Virus record (IMG/VR): IMGVR_UViG_2917408641_000001
Origin: a virus
Lineage: Duplodnaviria; Heunggongvirae; Uroviricota; Caudoviricetes
Strand: one strand, 5' to 3'
DNA length: 15,816 bases
Made by a program: the position numbers. How positions within the stretch are numbered: position 1 is the stretch's first letter; each line of letters opens with the position of its first letter. Positions 6,001 to 9,000 of the stretch are shown here, one piece after another.

Positions 6001-9000
6001 TATGACAATGCCTGTGTGGAAAGCTTCTTTCATTCGCTGAAGGTGGAATGTATCCACGGGGAACGCTTTAGCAGCCGGGAAATAATGCGGGCAACGGTGT
6101 TTAATTATATCGAGTGTGATTACAATCGCTGGCGTCGTCACAGTGCCTGTGGCGGTCTCAGCCCGGAACAATTTGAAAACCATAATCTCGCTTAGGGCCG
6201 TGTCCACATTACGTGGGTAGGATCATGGCTCGTTCAGACGCAGGGCGCGTCCTGATGCCAGTCTTTGAATTCTTTTATTACGCTCGTCAATAATAATTGC
6301 GCAACTCAGTAATTGTTCTGATGTCATATTTTCACGATTAATAATGTCTTCCATTTCAGAAATAATGGATATAATTTTGTCTTTATTCAGTTCTTTCATT
6401 ATTTACAACCTTTTCAGTGAACAAACTCAACAAGGCGAATTCGTGTCGCCTCGTTGAGTTTATCTTTTTGCTACTCAGGAAAAAAAGCCTGAATGTTCTT
6501 TTTCATCTGCTGTACGGCGTTGTCGCTCTTCGTTGTCGGTTGTGCCGGTTTTTCTGGCTGAGGTGGCAGTGAAGGTAACCGGATTTCATCGTCTGACCAT
6601 TCTGCCAGCGAGTACGCCAGTGCGGGGTTGTTTTTGATGAGTGCCAGCCCGGCCAGAAAGGCCGCGCGTTGCGCGCGGCTGCGTTCGGAGGCTGGCAGGC
6701 TGTCGAGATAATCACACGCCTGTTGCTCACGCTTGACGATAGCGGGCTTCAGGTAGAAACTTATCCGCCTGGTTGATGTCGTCATTGGTTTACTCCTTGT
6801 CCATTGCGTACAGCCCATTAACCAGAGCAAACTGTGGCACCCCGTCCGCGATGAAAGTCGCATTAACTCCGCAGGCTTCGCGGATAGCGGGTGCCACAAT
6901 CTCCGCCCCGCCACCGACAACCATCACCCGCCCGTAACCCGAAAAACCCGCCAGCGCGCGGATCACGCGTTGTTTCAGTGTTTCTTCCTTTTCACGAATA
7001 ACCGCCATCAGGCTGGCGTAATGCGCGTCATTGTGGATGTGCTGGCGCAGCCAGGCTTCATCATGGCGATGTTCGATAATGGTACTGGCGATGTGGTGAC
7101 TGGTACGCATACCGTTAGTGGCCATCACCGACAGTACGGCATCGGCCATCAGAGAAACGCCTACGTGTGGATCGCAAAATACCTGGCTGATACCTGCCAG
7201 TTGTCCCTGAACCTTTGCCACATCCAGCGTGGTTCCGCCCAAATCCACAATCAGCAGGGACTCAAACGGACTCATGTCAGCCAGGGCTTGAAAGCCAGCC
7301 GGAATGGATTCAGGCATAACCCGTACATTACGGATAGTGAATGCCTCACCGTTCTGGTACTCCACCGGGCGCATAACGTTCGCTTTTTTGCGGTTGATGT
7401 TGGTCATATCCGGCTGTGCGTTTGTGTCGAAATACTCGCTCAGTGGCAGGGTGACAACAACATCCACCTCCTGTGGCGTGATGCCTGATTTGACCAGCGC
7501 GTGATGAATGGCAATGACATTCACATCGCTGTACTGGTATTGCGTGTCGGTCGTCTGGACAAAGCGATCGCTGACCGGATCAAAACCATAGCGCACGCCA
7601 TCAAGCATGTAGTTCGCGGGCTGCGTGCCACCGAACGGCGCAGACCATTCCGACTTGAAGCTGTTCGGGCTGATGGCGTTGCGGCGTTCGCCGTTCTCAG
7701 TCCATGCCAGCTTGATGTTGGTGGAGCCGTCGTCGATGCAGATTTTCATGTTGATTTTCCTTATGTTGGTTAATTAAACGTTTTCGGGATTCAGAAACCC
7801 CGGTTTTGCCTGTTTTGTGCGCATCTCATATATCGCGGCGCGTTTTTTGCTCATTTACGGGGTTTGCAAATCCCGTTTTTGGTTATTTTTTGTTTTCGCT
7901 GATTAAACCACCCCGCAGCAGCCCGGCACGGCTGTGGGCGCGTTCCGTGCCGGCGCTGATTTGCTGTGCGTGCTCTGCGTCACGGATGGCGCGCAGCATG
8001 TCAGACAGCACGGTGACGGGTGGTTTTGTGCCTGTCTGCTCCCGCCGGAGTACTGCGCCCAGACGTGCGGCGGCTGCCGGGTCTGCTTCCCCGAGCTGCT
8101 TCAGGTAAACGGTAACCGGGTTCTGGCGGATCTCCGTGCTGCTTACGCCGTGATTACGGCTCAGGCGCTGCCAGAGCTGCGTAATCCGGCTGTCCGGGCG
8201 GGTATCCGGTTTGCGTACAATTTCAAATCCCTGCGGTGCAATGATGCTGCCGTCAACGTACAGGCTGCCGCCCCGTAACAGGTGCTGCATCTGCTGTTCA
8301 CCGATATGCAGGCCGAGAGATTCGGCAGACTCCCGCCATTCTTTAGCGAGTAACTCGTGGTTATCAGGCAAAGGCCGCGGCTGTTTGCGGCTCTGTGTCC
8401 GGTTCTGCATGTCATCACTGCTGTTTTTTGCCTGTTTGTCACAAAGCGAACGCATCAGCGCCCGGCGTTCGTGCTGTTTCAGTGACCTCAGCCAGTCAGT
8501 GACACTGACATTCGGTGGCATTTCCGGCCACGGACGCGGTGCCGTGGCCTCATCAGGCTGTTGTGATTTCGTGGTTTCTTTGTTTTCGTTTTGTGTACGG
8601 GGACAGTTATTGCCACGAGTCCAAGGGGCGGCAGGGCCGCCCTGAAGGTCAAAATCCTTTTCGCGGGCGCTGTCTTCCGTTTCCGGTTTACGTCTTACCA
8701 GCTTCCAGTTATCCGGATGCGTGCACACACGGGAAGACTCCCCGATGAGCGGCGACCAGATCCCGTAAATCTGTACGCCCTGTTCGCCGTAATCGTTCAG
8801 CTCATCGGCGAGGTCGTAGGCGGTGCGAATCAGGTAGTCCTTGCGTGGAACAAGTACGCCACCCTGTTTTTCAATGTAGGAGGCAAAACACCCGGCATCA
8901 GCGGCAGCGAGTACCGCATCCATTGCCTCGTTCTCCAGACGTTGCGGTCCCTGTGGGTTGCGGGCCATCTGACAGGCAAGGCGGCGCAGTTCACGCCATA

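What the first reader, a model, noticed from the sequence alone, without database searches (positions are those of the whole stretch)
6471..7882. Plasmid-type parMRC partition cassette inside a P2-like prophage, directly downstream of the replication initiator
An actin-like ParM ATPase, a ParR-like adaptor and an upstream repeat-rich candidate centromere sit in plasmid order just after the gpA-like rep gene, where P2-family phages usually carry accessory genes. A segregation system in an integrated element suggests descent from an episomal phage-plasmid, or an element that can persist extrachromosomally. Together with hok it gives the island two classic plasmid stability modules.
Basis: partly seen in the sequence, partly recalled or inferred. 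Interest (0 to 1): 0.65.

Follow-up and report, generated by a model that had tools for sequence, protein, structure and literature searches.

The report
ParMRC partition cassette in dead P2-like prophage
The stretch really does encode a plasmid-type DNA-segregation system (ParM, ParR and a likely binding site), but the module is common, already annotated and already noted in print for P2-like prophages, and this copy sits in a prophage too decayed to excise or replicate.

Summary
parM (6790-7749, minus strand) matches R1 ParM over its full length (E 9e-93). parR (6471-6785) is a Plasmid_stab_B/ParR adaptor. The 133-bp spacer after gpA holds two 18-nt palindromes, not an iteron array.

The cassette is not new. 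It is the standard gpA-parM-parR module of P88-like (Xuanwuvirus) phages. It occurs in 1303 of 5426 complete E. coli genomes, and 1441 of 1443 copies are chromosomal. It is annotated in O157 Sakai prophage Sp13. Rousset et al. 2022 noted that about a quarter of P2-like phages carry such a system, "perhaps" for plasmid maintenance.

New here:
- parM is under strong purifying selection (dN/dS about 0.05).
- The same synteny occurs in diverged P2-like prophages of Hafnia, Plesiomonas, Serratia and Enterobacter.
- The two boxes keep a 73-bp spacing even in Hafnia.

The window's own prophage is a wreck. The late genes are deleted at an IS3 element, gpA has an amber codon, and int has a 7-bp frameshift. 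The phage-plasmid reading is therefore unsupported for this copy and weakly supported for the family. The most likely role is to segregate or position the transient circular phage genome. This is inferred, not shown.

The parts
6790..7749 (-). parM: actin-like segregation ATPase, 319 aa, intact
   Evidence: Pfam PF06406 3.5e-82 and PF21523 3.6e-68. PHROG 691 'partition protein'. R1 ParM 1mwk E 8.8e-93 over residues 2-316, with the DDGSTNIK, DLGGTTLD and GGGAE motifs conserved. It is 98-99% identical in amino acids to P88-like ParM. dN/dS is about 0.05.
6471..6785 (-). parR: ribbon-helix-helix adaptor, 104 aa, intact. This is a divergent allele, 55% identical to P88 ParR.
   Evidence: PF10784 1.5e-24. 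PHROG 2515. A profile of phage and plasmid ParRs matches pB171 ParR 2jd3 at E 2e-14. The N-terminal strand TRRISFYLKP and the C-terminal tail KKNIQAFFPE are conserved while the linker is hypervariable. The start lies 4 nt after the parM stop, with AAGGAG upstream.
7750..7882 (-). gpA-parM spacer: candidate parC plus operator
   Evidence: It is alignable across P88, E. coli, E. albertii and Salmonella loci. No consensus sigma-70 promoter was found in it.
7785..7802 (.). Proximal palindromic box (CGGGGTTTCTGAATCCCG on the coding strand), 35 nt upstream of the parM ATG
   Evidence: The core GGGWT-N5-AAWCCC is found only here and at the distal box in 68 of 99 loci fetched.
7858..7875 (.). Distal palindromic box (CGGGATTTGCAAACCCCG on the coding strand), 73 bp centre to centre from the proximal box
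   Evidence: The spacing is 73 bp in 53 of 55 loci scored and also in the Hafnia prophage L091.
7883..10705 (-). gpA replication endonuclease, a pseudogene: amber codon at 10436-10438 (codon 90 of about 940)
   Evidence: PF05840 1.6e-129. In-frame stop. CAG in relative SCU-152 against TAG here. 71 of 78 relatives have an open frame of at least 900 codons.
6223..6399 (-). 58-aa ORF after parR, a diverged homologue of the gene that follows parR in P88, cut off at the IS3 junction
   Evidence: Alignment with P88. Weak match to PHROG 6797. IS homology ends at 6225.
4982..6225 (+). IS3-family element (ISEc16-like) at the deletion junction that removed all late genes
   Evidence: Pfam HTH_Tnp_1 and rve. 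97.8% identical to annotated ISEc16. Host or prophage-end homology stops at 4981 and P88-like homology resumes after 6225.
4709..4849 (-). hok toxin gene of the same prophage's right end
   Evidence: Window 4563-4981 is 87% identical to the hok region next to ogr in the complete P88-like genome L006. In STEC308 the same hok lies next to flk.
1127..1230 (.). attR-side junction of the prophage, next to host flk (1-996)
   Evidence: It matches positions 10-113 of the circular P88-like genome L006, just past int/attP. flk was identified through annotated E. coli hits.
14805..15816 (+). Integrase, a pseudogene: 7-bp tandem duplication (AGGCGTA) at about 15030-15036 shifts the frame
   Evidence: Alignment with the intact int of SCU-152. 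ORFs 14790-15044 and 14989-15816 lie in different frames. Pfam Phage_integrase and Int_N.

Best explanation
This is a genuine type II (ParMRC) partition module. It is the conserved gpA-parM-parR unit of P88-like (Xuanwuvirus) and related integrative P2-family phages.

Proposed mechanism:
- ParR dimers (ribbon-helix-helix) bind the two palindromic boxes upstream of parM. This forms the partition complex and probably also represses the operon.
- The conserved C-terminal tails of ParR capture the ends of ATP-ParM filaments, which push sister DNA molecules apart.
- The substrate is most likely the circular, extrachromosomal phage genome during its transient existence. That means after infection and before integration, or after excision during gpA-driven rolling-circle replication. 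The srpMRC system of SXT/R391 ICEs and AlpAC of prophage CGP3 work this way. A stable plasmid prophage is less likely as the substrate.

What is shown: protein identities, motif conservation, synteny, purifying selection, and box conservation and spacing. What is inferred: ParR binding to the boxes, filament-driven movement, and the life-cycle stage.

In this window the module is stranded in a grounded prophage remnant. The late genes are deleted at an IS3 element, gpA has an amber codon, and int is frameshifted. It therefore has no replicon left to segregate.
For: - Identity.
- Same module in P88 and E. coli prophages at pdxB.
- Prevalence of 1303 of 5426 genomes, including Sakai Sp13 'stbA'.
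- Intact 319-aa ParM in 87 of 87 loci, with dN/dS about 0.05.
- ParR has a conserved DNA-binding strand and C-terminal tail with a hypervariable linker, as expected of a working adaptor.
- The same gpA-parM-parR-portal synteny occurs in Hafnia, Plesiomonas, Serratia and Enterobacter prophages with ParM 54-62% identical.
- Boxes occur only upstream of parM, with a fixed 73-bp spacing, also in Hafnia where the sequence between the boxes differs.
- Functional precedents: a four-repeat centromere and rolling-circle replication plus type II partition in SXT/R391 ICEs (PMC4489591), and prophage AlpAC (PMC4446434).
- Remnant status of this copy.
Against: - No experiment on any P88-like ParMR was found.
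- Only two boxes are present, far fewer than the roughly ten iterons I recall for R1 parC.
- No clear promoter was detected in the spacer, so the timing of expression is unknown.
- Plesiomonas shows no comparable boxes, and Serratia and Enterobacter have a different inverted-repeat layout.
- In the window both boxes carry an arm mismatch seen in only 2 of 87 loci. The cis sites here may already be decaying.
- A single clade holding all P2-associated ParMs has only 44% bootstrap support.
Confidence: 0.7

Rival explanations
1. Phage-plasmid lifestyle. The cassette lets the prophage persist as a low-copy plasmid, or the element descends from an episomal phage-plasmid.
For: - A complete P88-like genome is deposited as a circular 34.5-kb 'plasmid', pZ1323PEC0009-2.
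- The phage-plasmid D6 uses a StbA/StbB pair.
- The idea is stated in PMC9122126.
- From my own knowledge, not tested here: P2-type replication yields monomeric circles.
Against: - 1441 of 1443 places in complete E. coli genomes are chromosomal.
- The very phage deposited as a plasmid is 100% identical to an integrated copy in a sister strain. The circular record may simply be induced phage DNA.
- int is present in relatives.
- The only initiator is gpA. There is no theta-type replicon or copy control.
- ParM is at most 53% identical to any plasmid ParM and 48% to D6.
- This copy has dead int and gpA and no late genes.
Confidence: 0.15
2. Accessory 'moron' with a non-partition role. It would act as an exclusion or incompatibility device in the gpA-gpQ defence hotspot. 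For example, ParR/parC could interfere with related incoming phages or with plasmids that use similar centromeres.
For: - It lies in the locus shown to be a defence hotspot in P2-like phages (PMC9122126).
- Variable cargo follows directly: HicAB, KAP NTPase, DUF3800.
- ParR exists in two diverged alleles, and the DNA homology to P88-like prophages breaks inside parR, as a hotspot edge would.
Against: - There are no PADLOC hits.
- Both proteins keep every hallmark of a working partition pair, including the ParM-binding tail.
- The cassette is conserved across genera while the true hotspot cargo turns over.
- The DNA-binding strand and the boxes do not co-vary with the ParR allele.
Confidence: 0.07
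3. Non-functional relic throughout the family. The cassette would be a captured plasmid fragment carried passively.
For: This window's copy sits in a decayed element with atypical box variants.
Against: - dN/dS is about 0.05 over 2455 pairs, and ParM is intact in 87 of 87 loci.
- Synteny is retained at 54-62% ParM identity in other genera.
- The box spacing is conserved.
Confidence: 0.05

Closest known systems
P88-like (Xuanwuvirus, Peduoviridae) gp17/gp18, E. coli O157 Sakai prophage Sp13 stbA, PHROG 691 and 2515
   Same: The same gene pair in the same place after gpA. ParM is 98-99% identical in amino acids. The spacer boxes are the same. The integration site between pdxB and flk is the same.
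   Different: The window's ParR is a minority allele, 55% identical to P88 ParR, whose relatives include an allele in E. albertii. The boxes carry one arm mismatch each. The surrounding prophage is a remnant.
R1/pB171 parMRC (type II plasmid partition)
   Same: ParM aligns over its full length with conserved ATPase motifs. ParR has a ribbon-helix-helix N-terminus like pB171 ParR and a conserved C-terminal tail shared with plasmid ParRs. The gene order is parC-parM-parR.
   Different: ParM is only about 50% identical. The candidate centromere is two palindromes 73 bp apart rather than arrays of iterons. The host replicon is an integrating, rolling-circle phage and not a theta plasmid.
srpMRC of SXT/R391 integrative conjugative elements (Carraro et al. 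2015, PMC4489591)
   Same: A type II partition system in an element that normally lives integrated and replicates by rolling circle when excised. Its centromere has four short repeats in two pairs. It was shown to reduce loss of the excised form.
   Different: SrpM and SrpR are only distantly related to ParMR, whereas the present pair is a close R1-type relative. One host element is an ICE and the other a phage. No function has been tested for the phage system.
AlpAC of Corynebacterium prophage CGP3 (Donovan et al. 2015, PMC4446434)
   Same: An integrated prophage encodes an actin-like filament former plus an adaptor that binds its own upstream region. The pair acts on circular phage DNA after induction.
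   Different: It comes from an unrelated phage and host. Sequence relatedness was not tested here. The gene order is adaptor first.
StbA/StbB of phage-plasmid D6
   Same: A ParM/ParR pair in a tailed phage. The D6 annotation itself cites similarity to P88 StbA.
   Different: D6 is a P1-like plasmid prophage. Its ParM is 48% identical. The upstream repeats differ, being TCTCAAAT-type direct repeats.

Membership tests
Type II (ParMRC) partition system | Actin-fold ParM ATPase with intact nucleotide-binding motifs | tested here: met
   PF06406 and PF21523. R1 ParM 1mwk E 8.8e-93. DDGSTNIK, DLGGTTLD and GGGAE are aligned and conserved.
Type II (ParMRC) partition system | ParR ribbon-helix-helix adaptor encoded immediately downstream of parM | tested here: met
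   PF10784 1.5e-24. Profile match to pB171 ParR 2jd3 at E 2e-14. 4-nt gap after parM.
Type II (ParMRC) partition system | ParR C-terminal tail that docks on ParM | tested here: inconclusive
   A C-terminal motif (K/R)xN(A/I)xx(L/F)FP is conserved across phage and plasmid ParRs despite a hypervariable linker. Binding itself was not tested.
Type II (ParMRC) partition system | parC centromere of repeated ParR sites upstream of parM, overlapping the promoter | tested here: inconclusive
   Two 18-nt palindromes with a conserved 73-bp spacing, unique to this spacer. There are no iteron arrays, no consensus promoter was found, and there are no binding data.
Type II (ParMRC) partition system | Stabilises an unstable replicon | not testable with these tools
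   This needs a plasmid-loss assay.
Phage-plasmid | Prophage maintained extrachromosomally | tested here: not met
   The window copy is integrated between flk and the pdxB side. 1441 of 1443 family copies are chromosomal. One circular 34.5-kb record exists.
Phage-plasmid | Plasmid-type replication initiator or copy control | tested here: not met
   Only the gpA rolling-circle endonuclease is present (PF05840). Nothing else appears in the annotated complete genomes.
P88-like P2-family prophage (Xuanwuvirus) | int-C-cox-early genes-gpA synteny and nucleotide identity | tested here: met
   Window 6586-15816 is about 95% identical to E. coli P88-like prophages. Cox, HTH repressor and Int Pfam hits.
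P88-like P2-family prophage (Xuanwuvirus) | Complete, inducible genome (portal, terminase, capsid, tail and lysis genes; intact int and gpA) | tested here: not met
   There are no late genes between parR and attR, only IS1, IS3, hok and cargo. gpA has an amber codon. int is frameshifted.
Known anti-phage defence system | Match to a PADLOC model | tested here: not met
   No hits for ParM, ParR or the 58-aa ORF.

The most novel reading that the evidence does not exclude
ParMRC is an anciently retained, selected module of a whole clade of integrating, rolling-circle-replicating P2-like phages across Enterobacterales. It uses a minimal centromere of two palindromes with a fixed 73-bp spacing. It segregates or positions monomeric circular phage genomes during their transient extrachromosomal phase (establishment of lysogeny, abortive excision or lytic replication). 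This would be a phage counterpart of srpMRC in SXT/R391 ICEs.
Probability: 0.45. Interest if true: 0.5.

Novelty: already known. Interest (0 to 1): 0.28.

Why it matters
As found, it matters little. The cassette is routinely annotated, is present in about a quarter of complete E. coli genomes, and has been remarked on in the literature.

What remains open is why an integrating phage with rolling-circle replication keeps a plasmid segregation machine under strong purifying selection across several genera. That question is now easy to test. An answer would clarify how temperate phages handle their genome in the window between circularisation and integration or packaging. It would also extend the ICE finding that integrated elements actively partition their excised forms.

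The window itself is a clean example of a grounded prophage in which the partition genes outlived int, gpA and the whole late region.

Tried and rejected
- Literature: searches for Xuanwuvirus, P88, 'P2-like + ParM' and 'phage-plasmid + Peduoviridae' found no functional study. Most 'ParM' hits were the surname Parma or Parmley. The only relevant statement is one sentence in Rousset et al. 2022.
- Terminator reading of the boxes: rejected for the coding strand, because no T-run follows either stem there. The T-runs lie on the opposite strand, where no gene converges.
- RNA-hairpin covariation in the boxes: the variants give a G-U wobble on opposite strands for the two boxes, so there is no consistent RNA reading (by inspection).
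- Co-variation of ParR allele with box sequence: none. The DNA-binding strand is invariant.
- Promoter in the spacer: the scan found none. A weak TTCAGA-16-ATTAAT candidate overlapping the proximal box in P88 is my own reading and is degraded in the window.
- Rfam: nothing in the cassette.
- PADLOC: nothing.
- NCBIfam: the equivalog ParM model PRK13917 scored far below its cut-off. That model appears to represent a different ParM lineage, so I did not count this against membership.
- The genome-contig scan returned only 3 species because the query was a single protein.
- A first pattern for the Hafnia boxes used the wrong spacer length and found nothing relevant. It was corrected.
- I did not run structure prediction. 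The sequence evidence was already decisive.

Full report
**1. What is at 6471-7882**

All genes here are on the minus strand.

- The 319-aa ORF at 6790-7749 is a ParM. It hits Pfam StbA_N (3.5e-82) and the ParM C-terminal domain (3.6e-68), and PHROG 691 'partition protein'. It aligns end to end with R1 ParM (1mwk, E 8.8e-93), with the phosphate-1 (DDGSTNIK), phosphate-2 (DLGGTTLD) and adenosine (GGGAE) motifs conserved.
- Four nucleotides after its stop, preceded by AAGGAG, starts a 104-aa ORF at 6471-6785. It hits PF10784 Plasmid_stab_B (1.5e-24) and PHROG 2515. Alone it matches pB171 ParR (2jd3) weakly (E 0.003). As a profile of eight phage and plasmid ParRs it matches at E 2e-14.
- The 133-bp spacer at 7750-7882 contains two 18-nt imperfect palindromes, 7785-7802 and 7858-7875, 73 bp apart centre to centre. 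They are the only such sites in the window, against 0.03 expected by chance.

The one correction is that the 'repeat-rich' centromere is two boxes, not an iteron array.

**2. What the surrounding element is**

Window 6586-15816 is about 95% identical to prophages integrated next to pdxB in many E. coli strains. It is about 91% identical to phage P88 (Xuanwuvirus, Peduoviridae), which has the same gpA-parM-parR order. The left end of the window is host flk.

Between flk and parR there are no late genes. The content is as follows.

- An attR-side junction at 1127-1230, matching the attP-adjacent end of a complete P88-like genome.
- A DUF4116 cargo gene.
- An IS1 inserted into a DUF4875 gene.
- hok at 4709-4849. 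Its region is 87% identical to the hok next to ogr in the complete genome.
- An ISEc16-like IS3 at 4982-6225.
- A 58-aa stump of the gene that normally follows parR.

Two further lesions are present. gpA carries a CAG-to-TAG amber codon at codon 90 (10436-10438), whereas 71 of 78 relatives have an open frame of at least 900 codons. The integrase has a 7-bp tandem duplication that shifts the frame.

The element is thus a grounded remnant of about 14.7 kb, compared with roughly 31-40 kb for the deposited complete relatives. An IMG/VR contig (L009) is 100% identical to window 6223-13749 and starts at the IS junction.

**3. How common and how old the cassette is**

- parM plus spacer is found in 1303 of 5426 complete E. 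coli genomes. Of 1443 places, 1441 are chromosomal. The hits include O157:H7 Sakai prophage Sp13, annotated 'stbA'.
- In the phage collection only Xuanwuvirus members (94-99% amino-acid identity) and the phage-plasmid D6 (48%) carry a relative.
- In PLSDB, every plasmid ParM is at most 53% identical, apart from six records that match at 95% or more, which are among the records that carry P88-like prophage DNA.
- Across 87 loci ParM is always an intact 319 aa. Pairwise dN/dS averages about 0.05.
- ParR shows an invariant N-terminal strand (PTRRISFYLKP), two helix alleles, a hypervariable linker and a conserved C-terminal tail (NI(R/Q)A(L/F)FPE). The tail motif is shared with plasmid and D6 ParRs.
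- Proteins 54-62% identical to the window ParM lie in the same place, between gpA and the portal gene and followed by a Plasmid_stab_B gene. They occur in P2-like prophages of Hafnia, Plesiomonas (with int), Serratia and Enterobacter ludwigii.
- In an NJ tree, window+Hafnia+Plesiomonas and Serratia+Enterobacter each get 100% bootstrap support. Their union is recovered but with only 44% support.
- Relatives outside these groups sit in an ICE (Dickeya), an integrated plasmid (Mangrovibacter) and plasmids.

**4. The cis sites**

The core GGGWT-N5-AAWCCC occurs only at the two positions upstream of parM in the loci fetched and in a complete 34.5-kb genome. The spacing is 73 bp in 53 of 55 scored loci.

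The Hafnia prophage has both boxes with exactly 73-bp spacing (7873-7888 and 7946-7961; 0.04 expected by chance). The sequence between its boxes is unrelated, and the boxes fall in or at the end of an extra upstream ORF. The Serratia and Enterobacter prophages instead have 14-20-nt inverted arms 26-28 nt apart. Plesiomonas shows nothing comparable.

In the window each box has a mismatch in its inner arm, a variant seen only in this sequence and its twin. No consensus promoter was found in the spacer. Neither box is followed by a T-run on the coding strand, so they are not terminators of gpA transcription.

**5. Mechanism**

The best-supported reading is a working type II partition machine. ParR binds the boxes as dimers of dimers. 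Its C-terminal tails capture ParM filament ends. The filaments push sister circles apart.

Protein identity, motif conservation, selection and site conservation are shown. Binding, filament action and timing are inferred.

The substrate is most plausibly the transient circular phage genome. Two experimentally studied precedents exist. In SXT/R391 ICEs, rolling-circle replication plus srpMRC, whose centromere has four repeats in two pairs, reduces loss of the excised element (PMC4489591). In prophage CGP3, AlpC filaments and the AlpA adaptor act on circular phage DNA early after induction (PMC4446434).

In this window the machine has nothing to act on.

**6.

The identification is right. The lifestyle inference is not supported, for these reasons.

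- Family copies are almost all chromosomal.
- int is part of the element.
- gpA is the only initiator.
- The ParM lineage is old within integrative P2-like phages.
- This copy is triply disabled.

One complete P88-like genome is deposited as a circular 34.5-kb plasmid. An identical phage is integrated in a sister strain, so the circular record may be induced DNA.

The idea itself is already in print. Rousset et al. [quoted passage not shown] I found no paper that tests it.

**7. Verdict**

The finding is real, correctly located and already known. Interest is low to moderate. The residual question is why integrative P2-like phages conserve ParMRC. It is open and directly testable.

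Noticed in passing
window 10436-10438 (minus strand): gpA carries a CAG-to-TAG amber codon at codon 90. The rest of the 940-codon frame is open.
   Followed up: yes
window 15030-15036: A 7-bp tandem duplication (AGGCGTA) frameshifts the integrase relative to intact relatives.
   Followed up: yes
window 3531-4298 and 4982-6225: An IS1 is inserted in a DUF4875 cargo gene. An ISEc16-like IS3 sits exactly at the junction where the whole late region (ogr to the gene after parR) is missing.
   Followed up: partly
window 11424-11511 and 11547-11621 (minus strand): Rfam calls a C4 antisense RNA (RF01695, 80 bits) and an isrK-like sRNA (RF01394, 64 bits) inside the early region. 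They overlap a 205-aa Ash-family ORF. This suggests a P1/P7-type c4-ant style immunity or antirepressor module in this P2-like phage.
   Followed up: no
window 6471-6785; loci L003, L009-L088: ParR occurs as two main alleles about 55% identical, plus several linker variants. The DNA homology to P88 breaks inside parR, so the edge of the variable hotspot lies within the gene.
   Followed up: partly
window 1786-3198 (minus strand): A 470-aa protein with three DUF4116 repeats lies in the cargo region between attR and the IS1. It is absent from the E. coli relatives examined. It has only a weak PADLOC hit to a type I specificity subunit (E 3e-4).
   Followed up: no
L004 (NZ_JBQPOM010000071.1): An assembly labelled Vagococcus sp. 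WN89Y carries an enterobacterial P88-like prophage on a 226-kb contig (ParM 98% identical). The assembly is probably contaminated or mislabelled.
   Followed up: no
L006 (NZ_CP148288.1, whole record): A complete P88-like phage genome with int, hok and a Com/methyltransferase pair is deposited as a circular 34.5-kb plasmid. A 100% identical copy is integrated in sister strain Z1323HEC0067.
   Followed up: partly
L097 (Dickeya chromosome) 7001-8373: A ParM/ParR pair about 49% identical sits in an integrated conjugative element, next to TraG_N and TraU genes and an integrase. This is another integrated element with type II partition genes.
   Followed up: no
window 6423-6461: A long stem-loop lies between parR and the next ORF. 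It is absent from P88 at the same place and may be a terminator. The T-run is stronger on the plus strand.
   Followed up: no
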